Below, piece by piece: positions 1,336 through 37,141 of a stretch of 37,141 nucleotides of DNA. Origin of the DNA: a virus (lineage: Duplodnaviria; Caudoviricetes); the IMG/VR virus record IMGVR_UViG_3300020045_011693, positions 1-37,141 of that record; one strand, 5' to 3'. A program made the translations under genes and the position numbers. The stretch's first letter is position 1. Each line of letters starts with the position of its first letter. The notes under the pieces are model-generated. The model searched no databases. It was not told where the DNA came from and worked only from the letters and a program-made list of their open reading frames with translations.

Positions 1336-1364
1336 CCGACTGATAAGCAATTATTATCGTTCGA
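1336..1364. repeat. 29-bp 11-7-11 site copy 1 (CCGACTGATAA gcaatta TTATCGTTCGA)
   Basis: Read directly; lies in the TMP/distal-tail intergenic gap and abuts the RBS. Confidence 0.9.
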
Positions 1365-1372
1365 GGATTTTT

Positions 1373-2743
1373 ATGGAAGTGCGATTTTCGGATGGCGCAA
1401 CAACCTACAATCTTTATCTGGGTGATGTGACACTGCTGAGTTACACGCCAACGGTTGGCGAGCGGTCGAAAGACAGAGTGACTGACAGCCTGGAGATACT
1501 GATCGCAGCATCTAGCCTTGCCAACCAGCAGGCCACGAAAGACACGATCAATTCGTGGCTGTCGATTGCGCGTGAGATGTGGGAGACGGTCAGCGAGACG
1601 AGGATTTGGATCGAGATCAAACAGGCGGATGAAAGCGAATGGCGCAGGTCTGAGCTACTGGGCGGGCGGTTGCAGCCTGTCAGTGGCACGTTGGATGGAC
1701 ACTCACAGTTGAAGCAAATCTACCAGATTGTTTTTGAACGACGCAACTGGTGGGAGTGGCCGGAAGTCGAATTGCCCATTTCGATTGATAATTCGACCTT
1801 TGCCACGGGTGGGGTCGAAATTACGGCGGATGGGGCAGCGATCTACCTACAGGGCACTGACATCGCTGGAGATCCACAGCAACCCGTGCCAGTGCGCATC
1901 GAATTGACGGAGCCAACGGGGTACTACGAGGGGATCGACAAAGTTTATATTGCCCACAACGTTTTTGCCGATCTGAGTCAGGCTGCGCCTGATGATCACA
2001 TTTTGGAGGGTGAGGAGGCTGCGCCACTGGTCGGGGCGACGGCAGATGCGCTGGCGAGGGGTGGGCAGGTCAACCGGATAACATGGTCTGGCGGACCGAT
2101 GGATAATGCGCACATGCTCAAATTTTCACTTAGTAGTGCGTTGCTGGCGGATTTGGGCGGGCGCTGGTATCGGCTGCTGTTGGCAGTAAAGCCAACCATA
2201 ACCGAGCCGCTTTACGGACACTTTTCGCTCTTCTGGGGTGGCTATCAGGCAAACATTCATAGCCCGATAGCGGAGACTGAAGAGGTTGAGATCAAAGACA
2301 GCGCACTGGGGAACTATCGACTCTTGGACTTTGGGGCGCTGCAATTGCCATCATTTGTGCCAGCGGCATTATCGCCGGCGGGACTGACGTTGACTCTGCG
2401 CTTACGGACGATCCACACATCGGGTACGGTGGACGTGGACTTTTTGGTACTTGCGCCAACCGACAGTTTTCATTCAACGAAATCAGCGAATGTAACCCGG
2501 ACGTTTGACAAAATGTTTTTCGACGGACGGCTGCCGAAAACGTATGTTCGTGAATACATCGCTGACTTGGCTATCGATAGCTTCGCTGACGTGTCGAAGC
2601 ATGTGAGTTTGTGGCCTGGTCGGGATCAATGGCTGGGAATTCTCCAGACGTACCACGATGGGGACTCGAGTTATGATGATTTCTTGTGGGATATTCCGTG
2701 GACGATGCAGGTGTGGTATCGACCACGAAGGAGCACGGTGTAA
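1373..2743 (+). CDS. Putative distal tail / tail-tip protein
   Basis: 456-aa ORF immediately after TMP with RBS GAGGA; C-terminal VWYRPR resembles Dit-like ends. Assignment is mainly by synteny. Confidence 0.6.
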   Translation: MEVRFSDGATTYNLYLGDVTLLSYTPTVGERSKDRVTDSLEILIAASSLANQQATKDTINSWLSIAREMWETVSETRIWIEIKQADESEWRRSELLGGRLQPVSGTLDGHSQLKQIYQIVFERRNWWEWPEVELPISIDNSTFATGGVEITADGAAIYLQGTDIAGDPQQPVPVRIELTEPTGYYEGIDKVYIAHNVFADLSQAAPDDHILEGEEAAPLVGATADALARGGQVNRITWSGGPMDNAHMLKFSLSSALLADLGGRWYRLLLAVKPTITEPLYGHFSLFWGGYQANIHSPIAETEEVEIKDSALGNYRLLDFGALQLPSFVPAALSPAGLTLTLRLRTIHTSGTVDVDFLVLAPTDSFHSTKSANVTRTFDKMFFDGRLPKTYVREYIADLAIDSFADVSKHVSLWPGRDQWLGILQTYHDGDSSYDDFLWDIPWTMQVWYRPRRSTV

Positions 2744-2745
2744 TT

Positions 2746-5142: not shown

Positions 5143-5171
5143 CCGACTGATAAGAAGTGATTATCGTCCGG
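5143..5171. repeat. 29-bp site copy 2 (CCGACTGATAA gaagtga TTATCGTCCGG)
   Basis: Read directly; 5 bp after the last tail gene stop. Confidence 0.9.
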
Positions 5172-8330: not shown

Positions 8331-8359
8331 CCGACAGATAACCCTTTCTTATCAGTCGG
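8331..8359. repeat. 29-bp site copy 3 (CCGACAGATAA ccctttc TTATCAGTCGG)
   Basis: Read directly; supplies the TGA stop of ORF 8352-8723. Confidence 0.9.
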
Positions 8360-8735: not shown

Positions 8736-9356
8736 TTATCGAAAGTAAAACTTCTTTGGACAAAAGTACTTGACCAACGCCAGCCCCGACTCGGTGAAGG
8801 GTGACGACCAGGCTAGCAGGTGCGGAGCGGTGAGCAGGTGTGAAGCCGCTTCTACTGCCAGCAGACGTGCAATGCCTTGTCTGCGCCAAAGACTGGCTAC
8901 CCACACCATTTCGACGCACCAACGTGGAGTCGGGTCGGGTGTGCCCATTTTTTCTCCCCACTCGCCGAGCACCGACTCGGGGCGGCGACACATGGCTACC
9001 ATGCCGATAGCTTTCTGCTCTTTGATGTAGAGAAAAACGTGATATGCCAACTTGCTATCGGCTGGGGCATCTGCCATGTAGCGATACCAGCTAAACCCAG
9101 CTTTGCGATCCACCGATTGTTTTGCCGCCCAGCTCGCTTGCTCGGCAACTTTCTTTTCTGCGATTGGTGCCGAGTTATGATCGACTGCCACAATTCTATC
9201 TTCGCCTCGCACCCTTGCTACCTCCACTGACCAATCAAGCGAGGCTTCTACGCCCTGCTCAACCATTGTGTGAATGCGCTGATGATGCGCCCGATCCTCT
9301 GCTAAATCTGGGCAATACATCATGTTACACACATCACAAATTTTTACGTCTTTCAT
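8736..9356 (-). CDS. GNAT acetyltransferase with N-terminal C2H2 zinc finger (Eco1/ESCO-like architecture)
   Basis: CDVCNMMY...EDRAHHQRIH zinc finger; acetyl-CoA motif VWVASLWRRQGIA; C-terminal AWSSPFTESG; RBS AAGGAG. Confidence 0.8.
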   Translation of the reverse strand: MKDVKICDVCNMMYCPDLAEDRAHHQRIHTMVEQGVEASLDWSVEVARVRGEDRIVAVDHNSAPIAEKKVAEQASWAAKQSVDRKAGFSWYRYMADAPADSKLAYHVFLYIKEQKAIGMVAMCRRPESVLGEWGEKMGTPDPTPRWCVEMVWVASLWRRQGIARLLAVEAASHLLTAPHLLAWSSPFTESGLALVKYFCPKKFYFR

Positions 9357-9380: not shown

Positions 9381-9682
9381 TCTGAACTTTGCCCGAACTT
9401 CTCTGAACTTTGACCTAAAATTGCCCCAAGTTCGGCGAAGTTCGGCCCAAGTTCAGACTCTTTTTATCCTCTATTTAATTTTTTCTGACTATGAACAATA
9501 GATTTGACATTTTAAGTGGTGACGTTCAGAAATTTTTGCTGTTTTTTGCCATTTTCAGACATCTTGGTAAGTAATCTGTAGACTCTGTCTGAACTTCTGA
9601 ACTTTAAACCCCTAAAATGCAGAAAATGGAAATTATTTTTAGATCACCCCATTTTTAGCCCTTCAAAGTTCAGAAGTTCAGA
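9381..9682. other. Putative replication origin with GAACTT iterons
   Basis: AT-rich non-coding gap next to the primase-helicase stop, with about 10 (T/C)GAACTT copies in direct and inverted groups. Confidence 0.7.
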
Positions 9683-9691: not shown

Positions 9692-12283
9692 TTATACGCA
9701 CCATTTTGGTTTGTGAATGCCATATCGATTCATCAGCCCCGTTAACTCTGTATCCTCGACAACCACTGTAATTTTTCCGTCGCTGGCACGGTCGCCACGT
9801 CTAAATAGTCCCAGTTGCTTGCTCAAAACATAGCCTGTCTTTTTGGGTGAGAATTTCATATCGGGGTCTAGGCTGGTGCCCAACGCTTCGGCTACTGCTG
9901 CCACGTTACTGATGCTCCAATCTGGCTCTATCTCGACCACTGTTGGTTTGGGGTAGCGAATATGCACCAGGGCTTCGACGACAATCGCTGGGTCGCTCGA
10001 TTGGCGATCGTTGATCAATGTCTGGTTATATAGGCGCACAAAACGCACCAACTCGTCTAGCACAGTCGGGTCATGAATGATCGACTTCAGAGCCAGTGTG
10101 ATTTGTGCTAGGCGCGGCATGATCGTGCGGTCAATGTCGGATGTGTTGACCTTGACTGGCTTCCAGTGTTTGAGGCGAAAGTCGAGCAGGCGATTGCGCA
10201 AGCGTTGTGCATCCACATAAAACTCTTCGGTTAGATCGGCTGGAATATCTCCTCGTACTTGAATGGCTGTTGTGTAATGGGTTAGACAACGGCTATCGCT
10301 AGCGCTGTCGCCAAACCCGCTACGCGCCCCAAATATCTTGGGGCCAAAGACGCCAAATCGCTTCACCTTTAGTCCGCTGTTGTCAGGCTTTGGCTCCATC
10401 CGTTTGACGCTTCCTTTTCGTTGGTTGCCCATATTGATAATCTTGGCGATCAGCGCTGATTCGTCTGATTTTGTAAAATCTGATTCATCCACGACCATGG
10501 TGCCCTTAAAGGTTTGCATGGTGTAGTAAAGCGTGGCTTCGCTGTCGCCTCCGCCAAAAATCATCGGTCGAAAGCACAAAAAGCCAATCGTCATGATAAA
10601 GCGGGTCTTGCCGGTGCCATACTCACCGAGGGCACGCAGGTAGGGCAGTGTCTCGTACCCGGCGTCGTAAAACCAGCTCAACAAAACATAGTAGCTGGCG
10701 ATATTTTCATAATAGGCAGGCACATCTAGCCAGTAGTGGATAAAGGCTCGAATTGATTTTAACAATTCGAGCTCACTGCCACTTTCTTCGCGGTCGCTGG
10801 CAAAGAGTACATCGTCACCTTCGAGTAACTCCTCGTCTCGTGCATCAATCGGCCAGTAGGCTGTGTTGCCCACAATCACTGATTGCATTTTTGCAAAAGT
10901 GCCATCTGGTTTGCGCACCCAGTAATAGCTCTTCTTCTCGCCGTCGGGCAGCGTCTCGACACACATCTCAAAGAGGAAGCCGCCCACAAACCCGCCAGGG
11001 CTAATCACGTGCCGCTCTGAATGCTGGGCTTCTTCCTCTTTGTTCGCTTCTTGGTATGCCTTCCACATGCGTTGGAACTGGCTCATACCACCACACAAGC
11101 GCTGTGCGAGGTCTTGTTTCATGTCGGTCTGGTCCATCTTGTCTAGCCCGCTGTAGATGGCGAAGAAGCGATGGACCAGGTCTTTGCGCAGGTCTTTGTC
11201 GCGCTCTTTGCCTGCTTTGCTGGCGAGAGCTTGGATGGCTGTCTGTGCGTCATCGAGTAGGGCAGAGATGGCGTTGATGTCGAGATCGGTACGCAGCAAG
11301 TCGTTGGCGTCTTTGATCGTTACATGGTTCGTGCCTGGCTCCTTGTTCTTTGCCTCTTTGGGCCAGGTGACGAGGCGGCAGAATGGACCTATCGCCAGTC
11401 CCAGATCGAGCGCTTTGGCCTGGCCAGCGCTGTCGTTGTCAAGCGCCACGTGACTGATGTCGCCCAGGGATGTATCGCCGACGGCGACCCCGCAGAGTGC
11501 GATGGCGTCGAAGCCCAGTTGCCCCAGGCTGATGGCGTCGGCCTGGCCTTCGCACAGAATGACCACGCCACGGGCTGGCTTGAGCGGGTTGGCATGGTAG
11601 GGCTGGCGTGGACCAGCTAAGTCTGCAGGTAGATTCCAGTGGCGCTTGCCTTCGATGCTGCGAGCGCTGAGGTAGGTGATCTCGCCCTGACATCGATGGA
11701 CGTAGACCAGGTGTCCCGCTGGCAGGCTGAGCACGGCTTTGGCGAGCGGATGGTCGAGCAGCTTTTCTGCCCGCAATCGCTTGGCGAGCGGCTGATCGTC
11801 ACCGACTGATAATAATGGCTTATCAGCCGGATTTGGGTTGTAGCCGATCAGTTGCGTGTTGATGGTGCCGTCGTTCCAACCTCGACCATAGCAGTAATCG
11901 AGCGCAGTCTGGTTGCCTTTGAGTTGGTAGTGATAGTGTCCCGCAGCGATATTGAATATAGTGCGGCGGTCGCTGGCCTCGCTACGTTGCTGAAAGATGG
12001 CGGCGCGCTCTTCGACGGTGAGCGGTCGCAACTCGACGCCCGCTTTCTCGGCCAGGGCGTGGAGTGCTGTGTCGAAGTCGCAGCGGTGGATGTGCTGCCA
12101 CCAGTCGAGCAGATCGCTGCCTTTCCCCTGGCTGTACCAATACCATGTGTTGGTATCTGTGTAGATTTTTAGGCTGTCGTGTTCGGTGGTGGTACGCACG
12201 CGGCCACGACCGGTCACTGTAAAATCTTCGGCGATGAGGTCTGCAATTTTGAGGTTGGCTTTGATTTGCTCGATTGGTGACAT
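9692..12283 (-). CDS. DNA primase-helicase (DnaG-like N-terminus, TOPRIM domain, C-terminal P-loop domain)
   Basis: Likely start MSPIEQIK at 12283; TOPRIM motifs CEGQAD and ALDNDSAG; Walker A GEYGTGKT; Walker B-like MVVDESD. Confidence 0.85.
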   Translation of the reverse strand: MSPIEQIKANLKIADLIAEDFTVTGRGRVRTTTEHDSLKIYTDTNTWYWYSQGKGSDLLDWWQHIHRCDFDTALHALAEKAGVELRPLTVEERAAIFQQRSEASDRRTIFNIAAGHYHYQLKGNQTALDYCYGRGWNDGTINTQLIGYNPNPADKPLLSVGDDQPLAKRLRAEKLLDHPLAKAVLSLPAGHLVYVHRCQGEITYLSARSIEGKRHWNLPADLAGPRQPYHANPLKPARGVVILCEGQADAISLGQLGFDAIALCGVAVGDTSLGDISHVALDNDSAGQAKALDLGLAIGPFCRLVTWPKEAKNKEPGTNHVTIKDANDLLRTDLDINAISALLDDAQTAIQALASKAGKERDKDLRKDLVHRFFAIYSGLDKMDQTDMKQDLAQRLCGGMSQFQRMWKAYQEANKEEEAQHSERHVISPGGFVGGFLFEMCVETLPDGEKKSYYWVRKPDGTFAKMQSVIVGNTAYWPIDARDEELLEGDDVLFASDREESGSELELLKSIRAFIHYWLDVPAYYENIASYYVLLSWFYDAGYETLPYLRALGEYGTGKTRFIMTIGFLCFRPMIFGGGDSEATLYYTMQTFKGTMVVDESDFTKSDESALIAKIINMGNQRKGSVKRMEPKPDNSGLKVKRFGVFGPKIFGARSGFGDSASDSRCLTHYTTAIQVRGDIPADLTEEFYVDAQRLRNRLLDFRLKHWKPVKVNTSDIDRTIMPRLAQITLALKSIIHDPTVLDELVRFVRLYNQTLINDRQSSDPAIVVEALVHIRYPKPTVVEIEPDWSISNVAAVAEALGTSLDPDMKFSPKKTGYVLSKQLGLFRRGDRASDGKITVVVEDTELTGLMNRYGIHKPKWCV
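11802..11830. repeat. 29-bp site copy 4, inside the primase CDS (CCGACTGATAA taatggc TTATCAGCCGG)
   Basis: Read directly; encodes PADKPLLSVG in the primase. Confidence 0.9.
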
Positions 12284-14709: not shown

Positions 14710-15885
14710 CTAAAATTCAAAGCGAAGGTTCTGGTATAGACCCTCGCTCCACGAATCGACTGGATCGTCGAGCACGTCTCGGATGTAGATGCCTGTCGTA
14801 GCTAGACTCTCGTGGTGGAGGCGTTCCCGCAACGCCTCCATGTCCCCGTTGATTTTGCGAAAGCGCTTGGCAAAGGTGTGACGGAGGTCGTGTACACGCA
14901 TTTTGCCCTCTACGCCAGCGTTGCGCAGGCAATTGTTGAGAATGACGCCCACTTGCTTTTCGCTGATGTGCCCCGTGGTTGGTTCCTCTTTGTGATTCTT
15001 CAGGTTTGATAACCCATGTACGGAAATCGGTTTGAAAATATAGTCGTCGGGTTGCATGGTGTCGGGATGGCGACCACTGGTCTTGAGATAGGCACAGATG
15101 GCGTGATAGACGCGGTTGGGTAAGGCGTCGGTCTGCTCTTTGGCACCCTTTCCCTTCCAGGCCACGACGTAGGCGCCGGGTTGGCTGGCGTTGGGGCGGA
15201 TGGCTCCCCACTTCAGCGAGACCAGTTCAGTGTTGCGGTAGCCGGTCATTAAATAGCCGAGCAGCAAGGCATAGTTGCGGCTGCCGTTGATAGTGTGCTG
15301 TTGGCTTTCGAGGTAGGCGATCAGCGTCGATGTCTCTTTGGCGCTGAGTTTGCGCGCATTGCCATATTTCTGGGTGCGGGCACGTTGGACGTTGCCACCA
15401 TAGAATGGGTTCTCACGGGTCCTGCCGGTGATGTCCATGAAGGCGGTGACCTCCACGCCGCGTACCAGTCCACGCTCGCGAATGACAAAGCTATAGAAGG
15501 ATGAGCAGGCAGCGAGTCGCTGGTTGATGGTGGATGGTGATAGGCCACGCTCGAATAACGATTGTTGCCAAGCACGGACATGAGCACTGGTCGCTTCCCA
15601 AAGTTGGACCGTGCGACTGTCGCCATGCGTGCAGGTCGAGAGGAATCGCCACCATTCGACCGTAGCCGTCTCATAGCTGCGGCGTGTGTGGTCGCTGTCG
15701 GACTTGGCTTGTTTGGTGCGTAGCCAGGCGTCGCGCAGTTCGACCCACAAGGCACGCATTTGGTCTTCTGCTCCGTGGATGCCAGCGTTGAAGAGGATGT
15801 CAAAGCTATCGGCCTTGGGGTGCGGTGTGGGCAGGATGATGGCGTAGCCGTCACTGTCTGGGTTGTAGTCGATTGTTTCATTCAT
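14710..15885 (-). CDS. Tyrosine recombinase A (XerC/D-like, in the early operon)
   Basis: Likely start MNETIDY at 15885; core-binding segment (GLSPSTINQRLAACSSFY); catalytic motifs TGYRNTE, KGK, HDLRH, LHHESLATTGIY. Confidence 0.92.
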   Translation of the reverse strand: MNETIDYNPDSDGYAIILPTPHPKADSFDILFNAGIHGAEDQMRALWVELRDAWLRTKQAKSDSDHTRRSYETATVEWWRFLSTCTHGDSRTVQLWEATSAHVRAWQQSLFERGLSPSTINQRLAACSSFYSFVIRERGLVRGVEVTAFMDITGRTRENPFYGGNVQRARTQKYGNARKLSAKETSTLIAYLESQQHTINGSRNYALLLGYLMTGYRNTELVSLKWGAIRPNASQPGAYVVAWKGKGAKEQTDALPNRVYHAICAYLKTSGRHPDTMQPDDYIFKPISVHGLSNLKNHKEEPTTGHISEKQVGVILNNCLRNAGVEGKMRVHDLRHTFAKRFRKINGDMEALRERLHHESLATTGIYIRDVLDDPVDSWSEGLYQNLRFEF

Positions 15886-17182: not shown

Positions 17183-17254
17183 GTGTCAATTTTGCGAATG
17201 TCTAAAGATAATGCTTTTGTCGGATTCTATTCCGTGATGGGATTAAGATTTAGT

Positions 17255-17641
17255 ATGTTCGACGCCAAAATAATGGCTCAGCGAGTGCTGTTGTCTCGAA
17301 GAGATTTGGATATAGACCAAAAGGAACTCGCTCGACGTTCCGGGGTAAGCAATACCTATATCTCGGATATAGAGCGGGCGAAAGTTTCCAACGTTGGGCT
17401 GGAATACATGTTCGCCTTGGCTAAAGCACTTGGCGTTTCTCCGAAATATCTGCTCGGCTTTACTAGCGATCCACATGGTAATGATGACGCCATCCCGGTG
17501 TTTGATGAACCCATCGACGCGTTGACTCATGAGTTTGTATCTATATTCCAGCAGCTTAGCGACGACAAAAAGAAGACCCTGCTGAACCTGGCGAAGATGC
17601 TAAGGAGCAGCGATGAACCCCGAATTATTGGTGGTGCGTAG
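17255..17641 (+). CDS. XRE-family HTH transcriptional repressor (CI-like)
   Basis: QKELARRSGVSNTYISDIER...LAKALGVSPKYLLG is a classic HTH_3 pattern; divergent switch layout; exact start uncertain. Confidence 0.9.
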   Translation: MFDAKIMAQRVLLSRRDLDIDQKELARRSGVSNTYISDIERAKVSNVGLEYMFALAKALGVSPKYLLGFTSDPHGNDDAIPVFDEPIDALTHEFVSIFQQLSDDKKKTLLNLAKMLRSSDEPRIIGGA

Positions 17642-17794: not shown

Positions 17795-17823
17795 CCGACT
17801 GATAAGAAACGGTTATCAGTCGG
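17795..17823. repeat. 29-bp site copy 6, both arms perfect (CCGACTGATAA gaaacgg TTATCAGTCGG)
   Basis: Read directly; the symmetry extends outward as AATCA...TGATT. Confidence 0.92.
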
Positions 17824-17894: not shown

Positions 17895-17933
17895 CCGACT
17901 GATAAGACATTTAGCGTGTGTGTTATCAGTCGG
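17895..17933. repeat. Variant site: two perfect arms with a 17-bp spacer
   Basis: CCGACTGATAA gacatttagcgtgtgtg TTATCAGTCGG. Confidence 0.85.
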
Positions 17934-18098: not shown

Positions 18099-18109
18099 TT
18101 ATCAGTCGG
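18099..18109. repeat. Isolated half-site TTATCAGTCGG
   Basis: Read directly; no matching left arm. Confidence 0.75.
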
Positions 18110-18112: not shown

Positions 18113-18154
18113 AAGAGACCCGTTGCAACCGTGCAACGGGTCTCTTTCGTTTTT
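18113..18154 (+). terminator. Intrinsic terminator upstream of recombinase B
   Basis: AAGAGACCCGTTGCA-accg-TGCAACGGGTCTCTT followed by a T-rich tract. Confidence 0.7.
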
Positions 18155-18178
18155 GCGATAAAAATTATTATCAGTCGG
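18151..18178. repeat. Variant site with 6-bp spacer (TTTTGCGATAA aaatta TTATCAGTCGG)
   Basis: Read directly; about 40 bp upstream of the recombinase B start. Confidence 0.8.
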
Positions 18179-18216: not shown

Positions 18217-19155
18217 ATGGCAAAAAGTAAAGCGAAGGTGGCCATCTCGATGCAGTTGTCGCGGGCGATTGAGGGTTATTTTTTGGAAAAGGAACGAGTG
18301 TACAGCAAAGATACAATACGGGCGTATCGGGGGACATTGAAGCGATTCTGCGACTTTGTCAATGACATCGAGATTGATGAACTTTCGGCGGACCACATCC
18401 GGCGCTACCTACGGCACTTGGAGGATGGGGGCATGATCAAAAGCAGCGTGGCGCGGGCGTGGTCTGTGCTATCAAGCTTCTTCACGTGGGCATCGACAGA
18501 GTTGGGGATTCAACAGGTTGTACAAAAGGTGGCGCGTCCCATCTTCAACGACAAGATTGTCGAGGCGTACACCGAGTTGGAGATGAAGGCGATGTTGGAG
18601 TCATGTGGGCATACGAGCTCGAGCAAAAATATGCAGAGTCGTAATCGGGCCAGTGCGCTGCGTGATGGGTTGATTATCCGCATTTTGTTTGACACGGGTC
18701 TACGGGCAAGTGAATTGTGTGCGCTTGAGGTGCGGGACTACAACCAGGCGCAGAGGATTCTCAAGGTGAGGCATGGCAAGGGTGGGAAAGAGCGGATTGT
18801 TGTGGTTGGGCTGAAAACTCAGCAGTGCCTTTGGAAATACCTGGCGGCGCGTGGCGATGTTGCGGGGACTGAGCCGCTAATTATCACCAGGAACAACACG
18901 CCGATCTCGCGTGTGTCTCTGCTTGACCTGGTTGTAAACATTGCCAGACGTGCCGGGGTGAAGAATGCCAACGTGCATAAGTTTCGCCACAGCTTTGCGA
19001 TTAACTTTTTGCGCAATGGTGGAAACCCACTGGAGTTGAAGGAACTTCTTGGGCATGAAAAACTAGAAACGGTGATGATCTATGTGAAGTACGCCCAGGT
19101 TGATTTGGTGAATGCGCACAAGCGGGCAAGCCCCGTGGATAGATGGAACCTGTAG
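18217..19155 (+). CDS. Tyrosine recombinase B / integrase (XerC/D-like, 312 aa)
   Basis: ATG 18217 after AAGGGGGG; catalytic motifs TGLRASE, HGKGGKER, HKFRH, LGHEKLETVMIY; no N-terminal arm-binding domain visible. Confidence 0.93.
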   Translation: MAKSKAKVAISMQLSRAIEGYFLEKERVYSKDTIRAYRGTLKRFCDFVNDIEIDELSADHIRRYLRHLEDGGMIKSSVARAWSVLSSFFTWASTELGIQQVVQKVARPIFNDKIVEAYTELEMKAMLESCGHTSSSKNMQSRNRASALRDGLIIRILFDTGLRASELCALEVRDYNQAQRILKVRHGKGGKERIVVVGLKTQQCLWKYLAARGDVAGTEPLIITRNNTPISRVSLLDLVVNIARRAGVKNANVHKFRHSFAINFLRNGGNPLELKELLGHEKLETVMIYVKYAQVDLVNAHKRASPVDRWNL

Positions 19156-20080: not shown

Positions 20081-20659
20081 ATGAGTGATGAAACTTTATT
20101 CCCAGCCAGTGGGAACACGCCAGGCCAAACGCAGAGCCGTCGCAATTACGAGGAAATTGTTGATCGGCTCTCGTCGTTTGCATGGTATCAAGAGTATCAG
20201 GAGTTGATCGCGCAAGGTTGGGATTATCGAAAGGCGATCTATATCGCCTGGGAGGCGTCACCAGGTGTAGGTCGAGAGCCAGCGACACAATATGAATTAG
20301 CAACGCAAGTGCTTGGCCTGACTGACGATCGGACTATCCGCAAGTGGAAGTCCAAGCAACCAGAGATCGAGACGGCAATTGTGGAGTTGGCCGCTGCGCC
20401 GTTGCTGCGTCATCGACGAGACATCTACATGGCATTGATCGACAGTGCAACCAACCCGGCGCCTGCTAACCATAGCGATCGCAAATTGGCGCTGGAGATG
20501 CTGGGCGATTATGTGCCCAAGAGCAAGCAACAACTGACTGGCAAAGATGAGGGGCCGATTGAATATCGTGATGCGAGTGAGTTGAGCGATGACGAATTGG
20601 CGCTTATCGCAGCAGGACGCAGCCCAGGAGCTGCTCCGTCGTCGAAACGCAAGAAATAG
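20081..20659 (+). CDS. terS: Terminase small subunit (putative)
   Basis: HTH-like segment (TQYELATQVLGLTDDRTIRKW), DRKLALEMLG and LTGKDEGPI motifs; overlaps terL. Confidence 0.75.
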   Translation: MSDETLFPASGNTPGQTQSRRNYEEIVDRLSSFAWYQEYQELIAQGWDYRKAIYIAWEASPGVGREPATQYELATQVLGLTDDRTIRKWKSKQPEIETAIVELAAAPLLRHRRDIYMALIDSATNPAPANHSDRKLALEMLGDYVPKSKQQLTGKDEGPIEYRDASELSDDELALIAAGRSPGAAPSSKRKK

Positions 20660-22112
20660 CGTCTTGACTTTCACCGAGTACACCTATCCACAGTACAAGG
20701 CTGACCCGGTGCACCAGTTGTTGGCCAACACGTTGGATCGGGTGGTTGCGGGTGAATTGACGCGGCTGATCATCGTCGCACCTCCGCAGCACGGCAAGAG
20801 CGAGTTAACCAGCGTGCGGCTGCCAGCCTACTGGTTGGGCAAGCGACCGAATGACCCCGTCATCCTTTGTAGTTATGGCGCCGAGCTGGCAGAGGGGAAA
20901 AGTCGGCAGGCGCGTGATATTGTGCAAAGTGGTGAGTATCGAGCGCTCTTTGGCTCGCTACGAGCAGGTGAGATTGAGTCGGTAGAGGTGCGACCGGACA
21001 GCCGGGCGGTGCAGCGCTGGCAGTTGATGACACCGCACCGCGGCGGGTTGATTGCTGTGGGTGTGGGTGGGCCGGTGACTGGCCATGGTGCTCGGTTGGG
21101 GATTATCGACGATCCGCACGAGAACTGGGAGGAAGCGCAAAGCCAAACGATGCGTGAGCGGGTGTGGAGCTGGTATCGTGGCACCTTCCGCACACGCATC
21201 TGGGAGGGTGGGGCGATTGTGCTGATGATGACGCGTTGGCACGAAGATGATTTGGTGGGCAAGCTGTTGAAAGAACAACCAGGGCAGTGGACCCTGCTAC
21301 GCTTGCCAGCCATCGCCGAAAGCCAACAGGAGCGCGATGAGAACAATCGTCACATGGGGCTGCCGTTGGGTGAGGATGACCCGTTAGGGCGTGTAGAGGG
21401 TGAAGCATTAGCACCCAACCGCTATAGTGCAAATGAATTGAACAGTATCCGGCGTGATGTGGGGTCGATGATCTTCCAGGCTGAATACCAGGGGTCGCCG
21501 CGTGCGCCCGAAGGCAACATGATCAACCGGGCATGGTTGCCGATTAAAGAGATCGGAATGCCCAACGCTCTGGTGAGGATCCGCTACTGGGACAAGGCAG
21601 CCTCGCTCAAGAAGGGCAGTAAGTATAGCGCTGGGGTAAGGGTATCGATTACCGAGCAAGGATGGGTCACCATTGAACATGTGGTGCATGGACAATGGAG
21701 CACGCTTGATCGACGCACGATTATGAAACAGACAGCGCAGCTCGATGCCGAGTTGTTTGGGAATAGCGTGCTGGTCTACATCGAACAGGAGCCGGGGTCC
21801 AGTGGTCTGGACAGCGTAAGCGACGAGATCCGCTTGCTGGCTGGCCACCCGGTCTTTGCGGACCACCCCAGCGGCGACAAGAATACGCGTATGATGCCCT
21901 TCGTGGCCCAGGCTGAGGGCGGCAATGTGCGGCTGTTGCCAGGGCAGTGGAATGGCGAGTATGTAGACGAGATGGCTGTGTTACCCGGTGGAACCTATCG
22001 AGACCAGGCTGATGCGACCAGCGGGGCGTACAATCGAGGGATCGATGTGATCAACGCTCAGCCACAGGGCATCATGGTGTATGAGGATTATGTAGAGATT
22101 TCGCCGGTGTGA
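20589..22112 (+). CDS. terL: Terminase large subunit
   Basis: Walker A APPQHGKS, Walker B GIIDDP, coupling motif MMTRWHEDD, nuclease motifs RYWDKA and DQADA. Confidence 0.95.
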   Translation: MTNWRLSQQDAAQELLRRRNARNSVLTFTEYTYPQYKADPVHQLLANTLDRVVAGELTRLIIVAPPQHGKSELTSVRLPAYWLGKRPNDPVILCSYGAELAEGKSRQARDIVQSGEYRALFGSLRAGEIESVEVRPDSRAVQRWQLMTPHRGGLIAVGVGGPVTGHGARLGIIDDPHENWEEAQSQTMRERVWSWYRGTFRTRIWEGGAIVLMMTRWHEDDLVGKLLKEQPGQWTLLRLPAIAESQQERDENNRHMGLPLGEDDPLGRVEGEALAPNRYSANELNSIRRDVGSMIFQAEYQGSPRAPEGNMINRAWLPIKEIGMPNALVRIRYWDKAASLKKGSKYSAGVRVSITEQGWVTIEHVVHGQWSTLDRRTIMKQTAQLDAELFGNSVLVYIEQEPGSSGLDSVSDEIRLLAGHPVFADHPSGDKNTRMMPFVAQAEGGNVRLLPGQWNGEYVDEMAVLPGGTYRDQADATSGAYNRGIDVINAQPQGIMVYEDYVEISPV

Positions 22113-22351
22113 CGTGTGACGTGGTGCGTATTACTTGGAAAGGTGCGACGATGCTACGAGAGGTGCGATCACGGCGGGGCTGCAAGCTGTTGTTTCGCTT
22201 CGACCCGGAGCGAGATTTGATTGAGATCAAGACGCCGCTGGGTGAGATCGAAACGGTGGCGCTGGATGAGCTCCGCCCGTTGCATCTGCGCAGGGTGCAG
22301 CGGGCGGAGGGTGTGAACTTCGCTCGGATTGATGGCGTAGAGGCCGACTGA
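22109..22351 (+). CDS. Hypothetical protein
   Basis: 80 aa, overlaps the terL stop; its TGA lies in site copy 7. Confidence 0.65.
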   Translation: MTCDVVRITWKGATMLREVRSRRGCKLLFRFDPERDLIEIKTPLGEIETVALDELRPLHLRRVQRAEGVNFARIDGVEAD

Positions 22352-22372
22352 TAATAACGAGTTATCGGTCGA
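22344..22372. repeat. 29-bp site copy 7 (CCGACTGATAA taacgag TTATCGGTCGA)
   Basis: Read directly. Confidence 0.9.
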
Positions 22373-22391: not shown

Positions 22392-22682
22392 TTGAACAGG
22401 CTTATAACATTACCCACAAGTGAAAGACGGCCAAATACTCCGCCCAACATTCAATTAATACCAGAGATGCCAAGCAAAAGCATGAAACGAATTGAAGATA
22501 AAATTCGAGAAATGCCATTAATTGAACGATTGACAATTGCCGATGACATGATCTGCGCAATGTGCAAAGATGGTCGATCCCCCAAAATGAGCATTCCGGT
22601 TCAGCCAACAGACGAGGATGTGTTTATCTCTTTGGCGTTACGAGATGCCAAAGAGCTTATAGAAGTTCTGCGACGACCATAG
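22392..22682 (+). CDS. Hypothetical accessory protein (AT-richer than its flanks)
   Basis: TTG start after AGGAGG; 96 aa. Confidence 0.6.
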   Translation: MNRLITLPTSERRPNTPPNIQLIPEMPSKSMKRIEDKIREMPLIERLTIADDMICAMCKDGRSPKMSIPVQPTDEDVFISLALRDAKELIEVLRRP

Positions 22683-22702
22683 TGTTAATAGTTGCGAGGG
22701 GC

Positions 22703-22731
22703 TTGATCTGCACGAACAGACGTGCTATGAT
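22703..22731 (+). promoter_or_regulatory. Sigma70-type promoter for the tRNA gene
   Basis: TTGATC-N17-TATGAT with extended -10 TG. Confidence 0.65.
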
Positions 22732-22810
22732 TGGGTTGCGTCCGGATGACGCTCAAATGAATCGTCCCATGTGTATCTTCACGGCGAAAGCTGTACACTT
22801 GGGACGCCTT

Positions 22811-22885
22811 TGCGAGGTAGAGCACCGGTAGCTCGACTGGCTCATAACCAGTAGGTACCTGGTTCAATTCCAGGCTTCGCAACCA
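22811..22885 (+). tRNA. tRNA with CAT anticodon (Met, initiator-like), encoded CCA
   Basis: Cloverleaf: acceptor TGCGAGG/CTTCGCA, D stem GAGC/GCTC, anticodon arm ACTGG-CTCATAA-CCAGT, T arm CCTGG-TTCAATT-CCAGG, 3' ACCA. Confidence 0.93.
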
Positions 22886-22919
22886 TTATAGGCGCTGCGC
22901 CATTCGCAGCAAGAGCGCC

Positions 22920-22962
22920 AAGAGCGCCATGACCGAAAGGTTATGGCGCTCTTCTTTTTTTT
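22920..22962 (+). terminator. Intrinsic terminator between the tRNA and the convergent toxin gene
   Basis: AAGAGCGCCATGACC-gaaa-GGTTATGGCGCTCTT followed by C and T8. Confidence 0.85.
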
Positions 22963-23010
22963 CTGGACTAATGCTGGGGCAACAGGTCGGGCGCTTCCTG
23001 CGGCAAGTTG

Positions 23011-23280
23011 CTAGATGTTTTTGAGGATGCGGTCGTATTCGTCGTGGGGGCCGATCCAGAACCAGACGATGGTGTCGCCACGCAGGAGTCCCAGCGCTCG
23101 ATAGTCGAGATTGACACGGACGGAGTAGATGGGCAGGGTGGCGTTGATGCGTTTGAAGTGCAGACCGGGGTGTCGGGGGTTCTGCTTAAAGAGCCGATAC
23201 GATTCTCGTGCCTGTTGGCGAATGCGGTCGGGCAAGCTGGCGTAGGCTTTGCGGAAACGGGCATTGATGCGTGAATTCAT
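23011..23280 (-). CDS. Type II toxin, RelE/ParE superfamily
   Basis: FRKAYASLP, NPRHPGLHFKR, YSVRVNLDYRALG and WIGPHDEYD motifs; 89 aa, basic. Confidence 0.85.
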   Translation of the reverse strand: MNSRINARFRKAYASLPDRIRQQARESYRLFKQNPRHPGLHFKRINATLPIYSVRVNLDYRALGLLRGDTIVWFWIGPHDEYDRILKNI

Positions 23281-23522
23281 GCGAGGACTCGTTCGGGTTG
23301 AAGCTCATCCCACAGCACGTCGATGGGTTGGGTAAGTCCGGCATCATCTTCAGCCATCGCTTCGAGTGCCCAGGCCGCCAACATATCGCCTGACTGGGCA
23401 AAGAGTTGGTCCCAACGTTGCTCGCTGGCCAGTTCGTCGAGTATCCATTGGGCAAGGATGTCTTGTTGTGGGATGGGGAGTTGTCCAGCCTGCTGAAAGG
23501 CGGTTTGTAGTAATTTCGTCAT
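23277..23522 (-). CDS. Cognate antitoxin
   Basis: 81 aa, acidic, ATGA-coupled upstream of the toxin (MTKLLQTAF...QQDILAQWIL...WDQLF). Confidence 0.8.
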   Translation of the reverse strand: MTKLLQTAFQQAGQLPIPQQDILAQWILDELASEQRWDQLFAQSGDMLAAWALEAMAEDDAGLTQPIDVLWDELQPERVLA

Positions 23523-23630: not shown

Positions 23631-23659
23631 GCGGGCGATAAGGGTTTGTTATCAGTCGG
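23631..23659. repeat. 29-bp site copy 8 (GCGGGCGATAA gggtttg TTATCAGTCGG)
   Basis: Read directly. Confidence 0.9.
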
Positions 23660-23697
23660 CAGCCCCACCCCAGCCCTCCCCGAAAAGAGGGAGGGAG
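23660..23697. repeat. REP-like hairpin CAGCCCCACCCCARCCCTCCCCGAAAAGAGGGAGGGAG, copy 1
   Basis: Near-identical copies at 28306 and 32236, each fused to a 29-bp site. Confidence 0.85.
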
Positions 23698-23720
23698 CTT
23701 TCACGGGAAGGATTGAGATC

Positions 23721-27721: not shown

Positions 27722-27750
27722 CCGACTGATAATAAGCTCTTATCGGCCGG
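27722..27750. repeat. 29-bp site copy 9 (CCGACTGATAA taagctc TTATCGGCCGG)
   Basis: Read directly; the symmetry extends outward as TGATCG...CGATCA. Confidence 0.9.
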
Positions 27751-28276: not shown

Positions 28277-28305
28277 CCGAGCGATAAGTAATTGTTATCA
28301 GTCGG
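28277..28305. repeat. 29-bp site copy 10 (CCGAGCGATAA gtaattg TTATCAGTCGG)
   Basis: Read directly. Confidence 0.9.
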
Positions 28306-28343
28306 CAGCCCCACCCCAACCCTCCCCGAAAAGAGGGAGGGAG
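28306..28343. repeat. REP-like hairpin, copy 2
   Basis: One mismatch to copy 1. Confidence 0.85.
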
Positions 28344-28370
28344 TGGTCACGGTAGGATGATTGGAGGATT

Positions 28371-32206: not shown

Positions 32207-32235
32207 CCGACTGATAACAAACAATTATCGGTCGG
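32207..32235. repeat. 29-bp site copy 11 (CCGACTGATAA caaacaa TTATCGGTCGG)
   Basis: Read directly. Confidence 0.9.
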
Positions 32236-32273
32236 CAGCCCCACCCCAGCCCTCCCCGAAAAGAGGGAGGGAG
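32236..32273. repeat. REP-like hairpin, copy 3
   Basis: Identical to copy 1 over the core. Confidence 0.85.
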
Positions 32274-32304
32274 CGGTCATGGGGTAGATAAAGATTGGAG
32301 GCTT

Positions 32305-34502: not shown

Positions 34503-34684
34503 AACACGGTGGCATCATGGGCGAGTTGCCGGATTGGTATTTGCTGATTCGAGCGGCGCGCTATTTGCAGACTACGCCGTGGGAGTTGGCAAAACAATCT
34601 GAGTTTTGGGTTGGTGCCGCAATGGCTGCGCAGAACGCTGAGATTGAGGCGGAGAATTTTCGACATGAGCATCACGGTCGCTGA
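34466..34684 (+). CDS. Tail assembly chaperone frameshift extension (GT-like, -1 frame)
   Basis: Open -1 frame (GPYEALS...AARYLQTTPWEL) overlapping the end of G and running to the TMP start. Confidence 0.6.
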   Translation, partial: GPYEALSLTRYLKHGGIMGELPDWYLLIRAARYLQTTPWELAKQSEFWVGAAMAAQNAEIEAENFRHEHHGR

Positions 34685-37141
34685 TTTGCTGGTACGGTTT
34701 GCGGCAGACACAGATAATCTGGATCGTGGCTTTGCCAGTGCAAACCAACAGATCGATGGATTTTCCCAACGCAGCCGGGGCGCCTTTGGCACTCTGCAAT
34801 CACTGGGTGGCGTAGCCCTGGGTGGGGTGGTGACTGGTTTGGCCGCGCTGGGTGGCGGCTTTATCGCGACTGCGGCCAGCGGGCTGTCGATGAATGAACA
34901 GATCGAGACTGTCACTGCGCAACTGAATGCCTTTACCAAGGATGGGGCGAAGTCGGCGGAGATCCTCGACATGATTCGAGAACGGGCCGCCAAGACGCCC
35001 TTTGAATTCGACCAAATGGCGGCGGCTGCTGCGGGCTTATTGCCGGCGGCGAAGGCGAGTGGGCAAGGGCTGGAGAGCCTGATCGAGAAGGCTGAGATTT
35101 TGGCTGCATCGAATCCGGCTGAGGGTTTGGAGGGTGCAGCATTTGCGCTGCGTGAGGCGGTGAGCGGTGATTTCACCTCCATCATCGAGCGCTTTAACCT
35201 TCCTCGACAGTACATCAATCAACTGAAAGCCGAGGGTGTGCCAGCGCTGGAGATTGTCAGCCGGGCGATGCAGGAGATGGGATTTGACACGGATCTGGTG
35301 TCAAATCTGGCGGAAACCGCTACGGGGCGCTGGAGCACGCTGAAGGACACCTTTACGAATTTTGCGGCGACGATTACGCAGCCGATCTTTGACCGCTTTT
35401 CGAGTGGTCTGGGAGGATTGAATACCTGGCTGGCGGCAAATGAGCCGTTGTTGAACCAGGTGGCGACGACCATCGGCACGGCGCTGAACGGTGCGATTGA
35501 TGGGCTGATCGGCATATTGCCCTCTGCGGATGTGTTGCTAGCTGGGTTGACGAATGGTGTGTTGGCGTTGATCGCTGGCGTCGGGGATTTGGTAACGTGG
35601 TTTTCTTCGCTGGTTGCGACCATGCGACCGGTTTTCTCGTTTGTTTCTTCTCTTCTTTCTCCTCTGGTGAGTCTTATCTCTCGCTTTGTCTCGTGGAAGG
35701 ATGTGCTGATCACGCTTGGGGTGGCGATTGCGGCGGTGGTTGTGCCTGCGATCGTTGCGTTTGTGGCGGCGTGGGCACCGGTGATCGGGACGATTGCGCT
35801 TGTGATCGGGGCGGTGTCGTTGCTGCGCAATGCGTGGGAGAGTGATTTCCTGGGGATTCAGACGGTTGTGACTTCGGCGGTGTCGGCGCTGGTTGACACC
35901 TTTGGCCCTTACATTTCTGCGGTGGGTACGGCGATCGAGGCGGTGAGTCATTTCATCCGCACTGGGGAGTTGCTGAGTGCGGTGGAGTTTGGGGCGAGCG
36001 AGAGTGTGGCAGCGCTGGCAGATCGCTTCTCGGAGTTTGGTGCAGATGTCTACGATGCGGTATCGTCGGTAGTCAGTACGTTTGCCCCCTTTGTCTCTGC
36101 TGTACAGTCGGCAATTCAGGTGGTGAGTCACTATATTCGCACGGGTGAACTGCTGAGTGCGGTTGAGTTCGGTGTGGGTGAAAGCGTGGCGGCCTTGGCA
36201 GATCGGTTCGCTGAGTTTGGTGCGGATGTCTACGATGCGCTCTCGTCGATGTGGTCTGGGGTACAACCGGTACTGAGTGCGCTGTGGGAGTGGCTGAGTA
36301 CAAACATCCCATCTGCGATAGATAACGTTTTATTATCAGTCGGAAATTTCATCCAGACGCTGGGGGTTTTGGGTGATTATTTTCGGGCAGTGGTCGAGGA
36401 TGGGGATTATCTCAATGACTGGTTGACGCATCTTCCGGGCTGGATGCAGGGTCCGGTGGAGTGGGTTGGGCGGTTGACCTCCGGGTTGATGGATCTGGCG
36501 GCGGGGGCTGACCTGGCGTCGCTGCGGACTAACTTGATCGGGTCACTGGGGGATATTGGCACAGCGGTGCGTGAGTTTTTTAGCGGCGACATCTCGCTGG
36601 GCGGGTTGGCCAGTGCGATGTACCAAGGGCTTGCGGACATCGGCGCGGCGCTCTCTGGGTTTTTCGGGGGAGGAGACTGGGGGCAATTTCTAGAGACGAT
36701 CCAGTGGAGCGAATTTGTGCAGGTGCTGACCTGGGAAAATTTCGTCAGTGTGTTGGACTGGGCGGGTAACGTTGCGTCGCTGGCGTGGTCGGACTATATC
36801 GCTCCTTTCCTGTGGGATGCGTGGTTGACTGTGGTGGACTGGGCCACCTACATCGCTCCGATTGCCTGGGATGGCTTCATCACTGCGCTGGACTGGGCTA
36901 CGAACATTGCGTCGCTGGCGTGGTCTGACTACATCGCTCCCTTCCTGTGGGATGCGTGGTTGACTGCGGTGGACTGGGCAACCTACATCGCTCCGATTGC
37001 CTGGGATGGCTTCATCTCTGCGCTCGACTGGGCGGGTAACGTTGCGTCGCTGGCGTGGTCTGACTACATCGCTCCCTTCCTGTGGGATGCGTGGTTGACT
37101 GCGGTGGACTGGGCAACCTACATCGCTCCGATTGCCTGGGA
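34665..37141 (+). CDS. Tape measure protein, N-terminal part (runs through the circular junction)
   Basis: MSITVADLLVRFAADT start; tape-measure motifs (AAKTPFEF, GRWSTLKD); Ala/Gly-rich; absent from the ORF track because no stop occurs before the window end. Confidence 0.92.
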   Translation, partial: MSITVADLLVRFAADTDNLDRGFASANQQIDGFSQRSRGAFGTLQSLGGVALGGVVTGLAALGGGFIATAASGLSMNEQIETVTAQLNAFTKDGAKSAEILDMIRERAAKTPFEFDQMAAAAAGLLPAAKASGQGLESLIEKAEILAASNPAEGLEGAAFALREAVSGDFTSIIERFNLPRQYINQLKAEGVPALEIVSRAMQEMGFDTDLVSNLAETATGRWSTLKDTFTNFAATITQPIFDRFSSGLGGLNTWLAANEPLLNQVATTIGTALNGAIDGLIGILPSADVLLAGLTNGVLALIAGVGDLVTWFSSLVATMRPVFSFVSSLLSPLVSLISRFVSWKDVLITLGVAIAAVVVPAIVAFVAAWAPVIGTIALVIGAVSLLRNAWESDFLGIQTVVTSAVSALVDTFGPYISAVGTAIEAVSHFIRTGELLSAVEFGASESVAALADRFSEFGADVYDAVSSVVSTFAPFVSAVQSAIQVVSHYIRTGELLSAVEFGVGESVAALADRFAEFGADVYDALSSMWSGVQPVLSALWEWLSTNIPSAIDNVLLSVGNFIQTLGVLGDYFRAVVEDGDYLNDWLTHLPGWMQGPVEWVGRLTSGLMDLAAGADLASLRTNLIGSLGDIGTAVREFFSGDISLGGLASAMYQGLADIGAALSGFFGGGDWGQFLETIQWSEFVQVLTWENFVSVLDWAGNVASLAWSDYIAPFLWDAWLTVVDWATYIAPIAWDGFITALDWATNIASLAWSDYIAPFLWDAWLTAVDWATYIAPIAWDGFISALDWAGNVASLAWSDYIAPFLWDAWLTAVDWATYIAPIAW
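35881..36240 (+). repeat. Two diverged 180-bp (60-aa) tandem units in TMP
   Basis: GGTGAGTCA, GCTGAGTGCGGT and GATGTCTACGATGCG recur at a 180-bp offset. Confidence 0.8.
36315..36343. repeat. 29-bp site copy 12, inside TMP (GCGATAGATAA cgtttta TTATCAGTCGG)
   Basis: Read directly; encodes AIDNVLLSVG. Confidence 0.9.
36756..37141 (+). repeat. 135-bp (45-aa) tandem repeat, about 3 units, in TMP
   Basis: GACTGGGC starts units at 36756, 36891 and 37026. Confidence 0.9.
37021..37141. repeat. Terminal direct repeat, right copy
   Basis: Identical to 1-121. Confidence 0.95.

What the first reader, a model, noticed from the sequence alone, without database searches (positions are those of the whole stretch)
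1336..36343. Genome-wide family of dif/lox-like 29-bp sites: one invariant arm, one degenerate arm and a unique 7-bp spacer per copy
Seen: twelve 11-7-11 sites at 1336, 5143, 8331, 11802, 15915, 17795, 22344, 23631, 27722, 28277, 32207 and 36315, plus variants at 17895, 18099 and 18151. Each full site has one exact CCGACTGATAA arm; the other fits TTATCnnYCGn and is perfect only at 17795. Read from the exact arm, the spacers are GCAATTA, GAAGTGA, GAAAGGG, TAATGGC, CAAAGCA, GAAACGG, TAACGAG, CAAACCC, TAAGCTC, CAATTAC, CAAACAA and TAAAACG, all different. Known: 11-13-bp inverted arms around a 6-8-bp spacer is tyrosine-recombinase core-site geometry; dif has 11-bp arms with inner ATAA/TTAT ends; pdif sites show a conserved XerD arm and a variable XerC arm; strand exchange usually needs matching spacers. 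Inference: these are targets of the phage's own recombinases, and unique spacers make them orthogonal. A site would then recombine only with its positional twin in a sister or related genome, giving programmed module exchange or multimer resolution without self-deletion. I know of no described phage system like this.
Basis: partly seen in the sequence, partly recalled or inferred. Interest (0 to 1): 0.93.

Follow-up and report, generated by a model that had tools for sequence, protein, structure and literature searches.

The report
Phage genome tiled with recombination sites
This uncultured phage carries twelve mirror-symmetric 29-base DNA sites spread unusually evenly round its genome, each with its own 7-base centre; they are likely cut and joined by one of the phage's own recombinases, which would let almost any packaged copy of a predicted circularly permuted chromosome close into a circle without scrambling itself.

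Summary
Observation confirmed: twelve 11-7-11 sites at the stated places, all spacers different. They are evenly spread (largest gap 4,549 bp, P 0.0002), and two lie inside genes. Of 23 phage contigs encoding a relative of recombinase A (14710-15885), 22 carry such sites. Arm sequence and spacer length change along its tree, and four single sites sit beside its gene. Recombinase B, the XRE and a host repeat fit worse. Arrays occur in 15 of 18 contigs with non-HK97 terminases and 0 of 4 with HK97-type ones. Best reading (0.55): a lattice of non-cross-reacting lox-like sites that joins the repeated ends of any headful-packaged, permuted genome; module exchange is likely a by-product. Against it: spacer uniqueness is not beyond chance (P about 0.08), headful packaging is only predicted, three non-HK97 contigs lack arrays, and no reaction is shown. 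The 'one invariant arm' pattern is peculiar to this genome. My searches did not find the design in print. This scan noted the same design before on other DNA.

The parts
1336..1364 (.). 11-7-11 site, spacer GCAATTA, just after the tape-measure stop
5143..5171 (.). 11-7-11 site, spacer GAAGTGA, where tail and early genes converge
8331..8359 (.). 11-7-11 site, spacer CCCTTTC on the + strand
11802..11830 (.). 11-7-11 site inside the primase-domain gene; at the same place in 8 of 8 relatives' primase genes examined, always coded with GAT and the rare TTA codon
15915..15943 (.). 11-7-11 site 30 bp upstream of the recombinase A start
17795..17823 (.). perfect 11-7-11 site about 420 bp upstream of recombinase B; its spacer varies among close relatives while the arms do not
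17895..17933 (.). 11-17-11 arm pair (one helical turn wider); similar pairs at the same place in relatives; likely accessory binding site of the attachment region
18099..18109 (-). lone arm before a hairpin upstream of recombinase B
18151..18178 (.). 11-6-11 variant 39 bp before the recombinase B start
22344..22372 (.). 11-7-11 site at the end of the small gene after terL
23631..23659 (.). 11-7-11 site before the portal gene, followed by a repeated hairpin
27722..27750 (.). 11-7-11 site after a 498-aa gene with no match in the relatives compared
28277..28305 (.). 11-7-11 site before the first head gene upstream of the capsid, followed by the repeated hairpin
32207..32235 (.). 11-7-11 site after the head-completion gene, followed by the repeated hairpin
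36315..36343 (.). 11-7-11 site inside the tape-measure reading frame
14710..15885 (-). recombinase A, 391-aa tyrosine recombinase in the leftward operon that also holds the primase gene; catalytic R217, K246, H332, R335, H358, Y367 conserved; likely enzyme of the sites
18217..19155 (+). recombinase B, 312-aa Xer-like protein; likely the integrase (relatives carry a tRNA 3'-end-like stretch just upstream; this genome does not)
17183..17641 (+). XRE-family repressor; rejected as the binder
20589..22112 (+). large terminase, best family phrog_38; predicted headful type

Best explanation
The twelve sites are an evenly spaced lattice of likely crossover sites for the phage's own recombinase A, which would join the two repeated ends of a predicted headful-packaged, circularly permuted chromosome at whichever site happens to fall in the terminal repeat. 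Steps. (1) Shown: the sites, their even spacing, their presence inside two long genes. (2) Inferred from co-occurrence, co-variation and gene adjacency: recombinase A binds one monomer per 11-bp arm and exchanges strands in the spacer. (3) Predicted from distant terminase homology: virion DNA is longer than one genome, with ends that differ between particles. (4) Inferred: after injection recombinase A, which lies in the operon with the primase gene and so is likely early, pairs the two identical copies of the site in the repeat and closes a unit circle, the substrate for replication or for integration by recombinase B. (5) Inferred: different spacers keep non-twin sites from completing a crossover, so the genome is not deleted or inverted. 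The same reaction would resolve multimers and now and then swap segments between co-infecting relatives at twin sites.
For: Even spacing: largest gap 4,549 bp against 9,570 expected, P 0.0002; also G001 P 0.00007, G002 0 of 200,000, JACCDT011167940.1 0 of 200,000, G015 0.004, G017 0.0008, G423 0.0025. The real spacing would serve 79%, 93% and about 100% of permutations at 8%, 10% and 12% redundancy, against 63%, 71%, 78% for random placing and 8-12% for one site; P1 packages about 112% of its genome (PMC10999674, passage). Sites are built into codons: 8 of 8 primase-embedded sites use TTA, which is 16 of 248 and 12 of 320 leucine codons in large genes. Enzyme link: 22 of 23 phage contigs with a recombinase A relative have at least one site; G005, with a related head and only a recombinase B relative, has none. 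Arms change along the tree (GATAA-7, GACAA-7, CATAA-6, GATAA-6). In G427, G428, G429 and G263 the single site lies within about 80 bp of the 3' end of the recombinase A gene, the usual place of a cognate site (PMC10250229, passage). Catalytic residues are conserved and the model (pLDDT 89) matches XerH and Cre. Packaging link: arrays in 15 of 18 contigs with non-phrog_9 terminases, 0 of 4 with phrog_9 (HK97-type) terminases, Fisher P 0.005 uncorrected for kinship; the four fall at three places in the tree, G004 being sister to this phage. Twin spacers are more conserved than neutral sites: 55 of 65 variable positions against 72% at fourfold sites, P 0.015, as expected of a crossover region and not of an operator's filler.
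Against: No binding or recombination was tested. Headful packaging rests on 31-32% terminase identity to phages themselves only predicted to be headful; the size of the repeat is unknown and must be about 12% for full cover, larger than in many headful phages (recalled). G427 and G429 have this phage's terminase family and one site only, and no site was found in G430. Spacing is not significantly even in most fragments (G016 P 0.12, G431 0.79 with an 11.8-kb gap, G422 0.32 with a 10.5-kb gap, G011 0.07, G012 0.05) and G015 has a gap of 20% of its length. Spacer uniqueness is not significant (P 0.07-0.11) and one-mismatch pairs are about as common as chance (19 against 23.6); Cre tolerates mismatched spacers in vitro (PMC1479339, passages). 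Closing one's own ends does not need spacers conserved between lineages, so that conservation fits exchange between genomes at least as well. Arms with 17-bp and 6-bp spacing and lone arms near recombinase B show the motif is also used without crossover geometry.
Confidence: 0.55

Rival explanations
1. Programmed module exchange is the selected function: recombinase A swaps segments between co-resident relatives at positional twins, as proposed for pdif sites.
For: 8 of 15 twin spacers identical between G002 and JACCDT011167940.1, several with one or both flanks unrelated; 11 of 50 alignment ends within 25 bp of a site against 4.6 when sites are shuffled among gene junctions, P 0.0015; one clean break at the left edge of G423 site 28352 and one Logan contig that starts to match at 17792; a toxin-antitoxin pair and a tRNA lie between sites 22344 and 23631. 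Acinetobacter plasmids form cointegrates at sites with closely related central regions (PMC11705084, passages).
Against: The second close pair shows no enrichment (3 of 30 against 1.7, P 0.23). Conserved sites seed alignments, which inflates the count. Large variable blocks have a site at one end only. Sites inside the primase and tape-measure genes, the even spacing and the absence of arrays from HK97-type relatives are not explained.
Confidence: 0.17
2. The sites are binding sites only: recombinase A, or another protein, coats the genome every few kb to silence transcription, protect DNA ends from nucleases or organise the DNA.
For: Most sites lie at gene junctions (13 of 16 in G002) and one just before recombinase A; lone arms and an 11-17-11 pair surround the recombinase B start; stoperators are a precedent for genome-wide sites (PMC9283540, start of abstract). 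An end-protecting role would also need even spacing and permuted ends.
Against: Sites are palindromic, and spacer polarity is 3 one way and 4 the other among seven sites in the rightward structural region. The XRE differs in its recognition helix between G002 and its close relative (50% identity overall) and the RHH-like protein was not found in the latter, while sites are kept. Spacer length is fixed per phage, spacer position 1 is never A in 108 sites, twin spacers are conserved and the catalytic residues are kept.
Confidence: 0.15
3. The sites serve only to resolve or build multimers of the replicating circle, as loxP does for the P1 plasmid.
For: Cre/loxP is described as P1's multimer resolution system (PMC10999674, passage); single-site relatives G427 and G429 encode ParA-type ATPases and may live as plasmids.
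Against: One site is enough for that; it gives no reason for 6-16 evenly spaced sites, for sites in codons, or for the terminase link.
Confidence: 0.08
4. The motif is a host repeat or a site of the host's XerC/XerD.
For: The inner ATAA/TTAT ends are those of Xer sites (PMC11705084, passage); repeated hairpins abut three sites.
Against: A scan of 185,579 species genomes gave 28 isolated matches and no cluster; 3 of 401 genomes of the phylum of a Roseiflexaceae genome have one match each; arms follow the phage enzyme's tree.
Confidence: 0.05

Closest known systems
Cre/loxP of phage P1 and Cre-type recombinases (PMC10250229, PMC10999674: passages read; Cre's role in closing terminally repeated DNA after infection is recalled, not read)
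   Same: Phage-encoded simple tyrosine recombinase with a Cre/XerH-like fold; inverted arms round an asymmetric spacer; site beside the gene in single-site relatives; headful phage with redundant ends.
   Different: Twelve sites with twelve spacers rather than one; 11-7-11 rather than 13-8-13; 15-18% identity to Cre in structural alignment and no Cre hit by sequence; a second recombinase likely does the integration.
pdif / xrs sites and dif modules of Acinetobacter plasmids (PMC11705084: passages read)
   Same: Many sites per replicon, inner ATAA/TTAT ends, differing central regions that prevent self-deletion, exchange between replicons at matching sites; toxin-antitoxin cargo between sites.
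   Different: pdif sites use host XerC and XerD on two different arms with a 6-bp centre and flank accessory genes; here the arms are one motif, the centre is 7 bp, the likely enzyme is phage-encoded, and sites tile the whole genome including essential genes.
Stoperators of cluster A mycobacteriophages (PMC9283540: search listing and start of abstract)
   Same: Numerous copies of one motif across a temperate phage genome, many at gene junctions.
   Different: Stoperators are asymmetric repressor sites (their orientation with transcription is recalled); these are palindromic, unoriented and do not follow the repressor.
Resolution sites with accessory binding sites for the same enzyme, such as TnpI of Tn4430 (named in an earlier scan note; details recalled)
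   Same: Near recombinase B a full site is followed by a wider arm pair and lone arms.
   Different: Only one of the twelve sites has such extra arms; the others are bare cores.

Membership tests
Tyrosine recombinase with simple core site (works like Cre/loxP) | Catalytic R-K-H-R-H/W-Y set | tested here: met
   R217, K246, H332, R335 invariant and H358, Y367 at 90% or more in 85 homologues; assignment of roles by motif is recalled
Tyrosine recombinase with simple core site (works like Cre/loxP) | Core-binding plus catalytic fold | tested here: met
   Model pLDDT 89; best matches XerH, XerA, IntI4, Cre, TM 0.5-0.6 for XerH and Cre
Tyrosine recombinase with simple core site (works like Cre/loxP) | Inverted arms round a 6-8-bp asymmetric spacer, near the gene | tested here: met
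   11-7-11 here, one site 30 bp upstream of the gene; single sites at the gene's 3' end in four relatives
Tyrosine recombinase with simple core site (works like Cre/loxP) | Spacer-matched strand exchange by the enzyme | not testable with these tools
   Only indirect: twin spacer conservation
Cre family proper | Sequence kinship to Cre and a 13-8-13 site | tested here: not met
   No Cre hit by phmmer; 15-18% identity in fold matches; 11-7-11 geometry
dif / pdif (host XerC/XerD) | ATAA-central region-TTAT inner ends | tested here: met
   12 of 12 sites; motif stated in PMC11705084
dif / pdif (host XerC/XerD) | 6-bp central region | tested here: not met
   7 bp here; 6 bp in relatives G017 and G431
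dif / pdif (host XerC/XerD) | Two distinct arms for XerC and XerD | tested here: not met
   Both arms fit one consensus; the exact-arm polarity of this genome is weak elsewhere (40 against 24, 27 ties, P 0.06)
dif / pdif (host XerC/XerD) | Processed by host enzymes | tested here: inconclusive
   Arms follow the phage enzyme; both phage recombinases score far below XerC and XerD cut-offs; host enzymes not tested
Stoperator / operator array | Asymmetric site oriented with transcription | tested here: not met
   Palindromic; polarity 3 against 4 in the rightward structural region
Stoperator / operator array | Site follows the repressor | tested here: not met
   Repressor helix changes and RHH-like gene not found while sites persist
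Headful-packaging phage | Terminase of a headful clade | tested here: inconclusive
   phrog_38; 31-32% to Bordetella phages predicted headful; no terminase tree built here
Headful-packaging phage | Permuted, terminally repeated virion DNA | not testable with these tools
   Only assembled contigs were available

The most novel reading that the evidence does not exclude
A family of Chloroflexota phages has turned one lox-like site into a genome-wide, address-coded lattice: a single phage enzyme reads 6-16 non-cross-reacting sites spaced closer than the terminal repeat, so any permuted headful closes into a circle without homologous recombination; the lattice is gained or lost as head modules switch between headful and cohesive-end packaging, and it doubles as a fixed set of joints for genome mosaicism. 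It would also be a natural library of orthogonal sites with several enzyme specificities.
Probability: 0.5. Interest if true: 0.88.

Novelty: new variant of a known kind. Interest (0 to 1): 0.76.

Why it matters
How headful-packaged phages close their varying ends is usually put down to homologous recombination or, in P1, partly to one loxP site (recalled). A lattice of spacer-coded sites is a different solution, and the link to terminase type makes it testable. It bears on why mosaic boundaries recur at the same places. It also offers natural enzyme-site pairs with 6- and 7-bp spacers and many variants each, the kind of heterospecific set that genome engineers build by hand. Ten literature searches were run; those aimed at this design found no description, but the library lacks most subscription journals and older phage papers.

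Tried and rejected
Spacer uniqueness as proof of selection: not significant in the window or pooled over 11 genomes. Two-enzyme reading: arm polarity is not a family trait. XRE and RHH-like proteins as binders: rejected. Recombinase B as the enzyme: G005 has only that type and no site; G428 and G263 have a site and no recombinase B hit; relatives have a tRNA 3'-end-like stretch (identified by eye, type recalled) before it, so it is more likely the integrase. Host repeat: rejected. Do array phages lack their own homologous-recombination proteins? No RecT, ERF, Rad52 or similar family was hit in array or non-array phages (subsets of genes only), so the test is uninformative. A viral scan with recombinase B alone found nothing. 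The single-sequence fold of recombinase A failed (pLDDT 35) and was replaced by an alignment-based one. No integrated copy with host flanks was found, so the attachment site of this phage is not located. The unfiltered repeat finder mostly returned GC-rich noise and hairpins; the filtered one was used. Left out of the terminase table: G014 (no terminase in the fragment), G005 (no recombinase A), six host-contig stretches with distant homologues and no head genes (G206, G374, G205, G214, G148, G266), near-copies of G002 (G003, G006, G009, G010) and short fragments. The P 0.0008 for spacer conservation needs one site dropped after the fact; P 0.015 keeps all 13.

Full report
The observation. The window is a whole 37,141-bp phage contig with a 121-bp end repeat. 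It encodes two tyrosine recombinases, an XRE protein, a primase-domain protein, a terminase, a MuF-like head protein and a Mu-like capsid. Named homologues of recombinase B come mostly from Chloroflexi and Caldilineaceae genomes, so the host is likely in Chloroflexota. No weaker site was missed.

The largest gap on the circle is 4,549 bp, 12% of the genome, where twelve random points would leave about 9,570 bp (P 0.0002). Two sites lie inside reading frames, in the primase and tape-measure genes, the two longest genes. The primase-embedded site is at the same place in all eight relatives' genes examined and always uses TTA for leucine, a codon that makes up 4-6% of leucines in large genes. The DNA, not the protein, is under selection there.

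The family. Pattern and protein searches gave related phages with the same kind of array: G001 (12 sites), G002 (16), JACCDT011167940.1 (15), G011, G012, G015, G016, G017, G422-G426 and G431. Spacing is significantly even in all seven complete arrays but only in one of six fragments at P under 0.05, and G431 and G422 have gaps over 10 kb. The motif is not a host repeat: 28 isolated matches in the species-genome collection and one match each in 3 of 401 genomes of the likely host phylum.

Which protein. Of 23 phage contigs with a recombinase A relative, 22 have at least one site; G430 has none that I could find. G005 shares portal and capsid, has only a recombinase B relative and no site. The arms shift along the recombinase A tree: GATAA with 7 bp in this clade, GACAA with 7 bp in G016 and G423-G426, CATAA with 6 bp in G017, GATAA with 6 bp in G431. 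In G427, G428, G429 and G263 the only site lies at the 3' end of the recombinase A gene; three of these single-site calls rest on one palindrome of 8-9 of 11 symmetric bases. Recombinase A keeps its catalytic residues in 85 homologues and folds like XerH and Cre. The XRE has a different recognition helix in G002 and its close relative, and the RHH-like gene was not found in the latter, while the sites persist. Recombinase B is preceded in relatives by a conserved block: a full site near -400, usually an arm pair about 17 bp apart, a stretch that reads like a tRNA 3' end, a hairpin and lone arms. That makes B the likely integrase and suggests the site-binding protein also helps organise the attachment region. 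This genome has the block without the tRNA-like stretch.

Spacers. No two spacers in one genome are identical: 0 of 552 pairs in 11 genomes. But only 2.3-2.6 were expected, so P is 0.07-0.11, and one-mismatch pairs are near chance. Spacers are biased: never A at the first base or T at the last in 108 sites, mostly AA at positions 2-3 once oriented. Between G002 and its 82-89% identical relative, 15 sites have positional twins and 8 share the spacer exactly, in several cases with unrelated flanks and altered arms. Variable spacer positions match at 55 of 65 against 72% at fourfold-degenerate sites (P 0.015). Two twin pairs go the other way: 4 of 7 spacer bases changed while arms and flanks are almost identical. 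Two runs holding close relatives of this phage each differ by one base in the spacer at 17795, with arms unchanged. I cannot explain these block changes.

Module exchange. Alignment ends cluster at sites in the G002 pair (11 of 50, expected 4.6, P 0.0015) but not in the G423/G424 pair (3 of 30, expected 1.7, P 0.23). Conserved sites seed alignments, and big variable blocks have a site at one end only. Exchange at twin sites probably happens, but it does not explain even spacing or sites in codons.

Packaging. G004, sister to this phage in the recombinase A tree, has both recombinases yet one full site, and has a P27 small terminase, phrog_9 large terminase and HK97 portal, protease and capsid; that this set makes cohesive ends is recalled knowledge. 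G013, G428 and G263 also have phrog_9 terminases and one site; G263 is cut by its contig end. Arrays are found with four other terminase types. The table is 15 of 18 against 0 of 4 (P 0.005, not corrected for kinship), with the HK97-type cases at three places in the tree. The exceptions are G427 and G429, single-site phages with this phage's terminase family and ParA-type ATPases, and G430. This phage's terminase is 31-32% identical to those of Bordetella phages that cluster with headful, permuted phages in PMC10269795 (passages). Headful phages package more than a genome with ends that differ among progeny (PMC11769102, passage); P1 packages about 112% (PMC10999674, passage).

Mechanism. A permuted headful has one stretch present at both ends. 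If a site falls in it, the two copies are identical and in direct repeat, and a simple tyrosine recombinase can close the circle. One site serves only a fraction of particles equal to the redundancy. This lattice would serve 54%, 79%, 93% and about 100% at 5%, 8%, 10% and 12%. Many sites are dangerous unless they do not cross-react, hence different spacers; Acinetobacter sites with unlike centres do not recombine (PMC11705084, passages), though Cre can be promiscuous in vitro (PMC1479339, passages). Cohesive-end phages need no lattice and have none here. I put this at 0.55, module exchange as main purpose at 0.17, binding-only roles at 0.15, multimer resolution alone at 0.08, a host system at 0.05. 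I noted this reading, before seeing that six earlier scan notes on other genomes describe similar lattices, four with the same idea; those notes are unchecked and are not counted as support.

Novelty. It works like Cre/loxP and looks like a pdif array, and belongs to neither family. The parts are of known kinds; the arrangement, a whole-genome lattice tied to packaging mode, was not found in my searches. Papers were seen as search listings, with passages read in PMC10269795, PMC11705084, PMC11769102, PMC10250229, PMC10999674 and PMC1479339; none was read whole and no supplement was opened. Verdict: real, a new variant of a known kind, interest 0.76.

Noticed in passing
window 22392-23522: A tRNA-Met (22811-22885) and a ParE-like toxin with a likely antitoxin lie between sites 22344 and 23631, like a cargo module.
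   Followed up: partly
window 23660-23706, 28306-28352, 32236-32282: A 46-bp G+C-rich hairpin abuts three sites; relatives have other repeated hairpins and purine-rich runs beside their sites, some shared between different sites of one genome.
   Followed up: partly
window 9381-9457 and 9588-9682: Two long inverted repeats built from a repeated 9-mer just downstream of the primase gene, in the most A+T-rich kilobase; possible replication origin.
   Followed up: no
window 17934-18098: Where relatives carry a tRNA 3'-end-like stretch before recombinase B, this phage has unrelated sequence; its attachment target may be of another kind.
   Followed up: partly
window 8736-9356: A GNAT acetyltransferase with an ESCO/Eco1-type zinc finger in the early region.
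   Followed up: no
window 34665-37141 and 1-1331: The contig closes inside 135-bp tape-measure repeats, so the true gene and genome may be longer by whole repeats.
   Followed up: no
G004 35868-36190 (L041): Five identical repeats about 72 bp apart, resembling a mini CRISPR array in a phage.
   Followed up: no
G002 5997 against its relative; G423 21144 against G424 15121: Spacer changed at 4 of 7 bases while arms and flanks are nearly identical; unexplained block replacement.
   Followed up: partly
G012 31709 and G013 1310: The same perfect arms round 6-bp spacers in two phages of one recombinase A clade, although the G012 array otherwise uses 7 bp.
   Followed up: no
L109, L151, L180: Unrelated metagenome contigs with one matching 11-7-11 site 110-190 bp downstream of a distant tyrosine recombinase gene.
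   Followed up: no
window 19330-19992: A CHAT (caspase-like) domain gene between recombinase B and the small terminase, also in G002.
   Followed up: no
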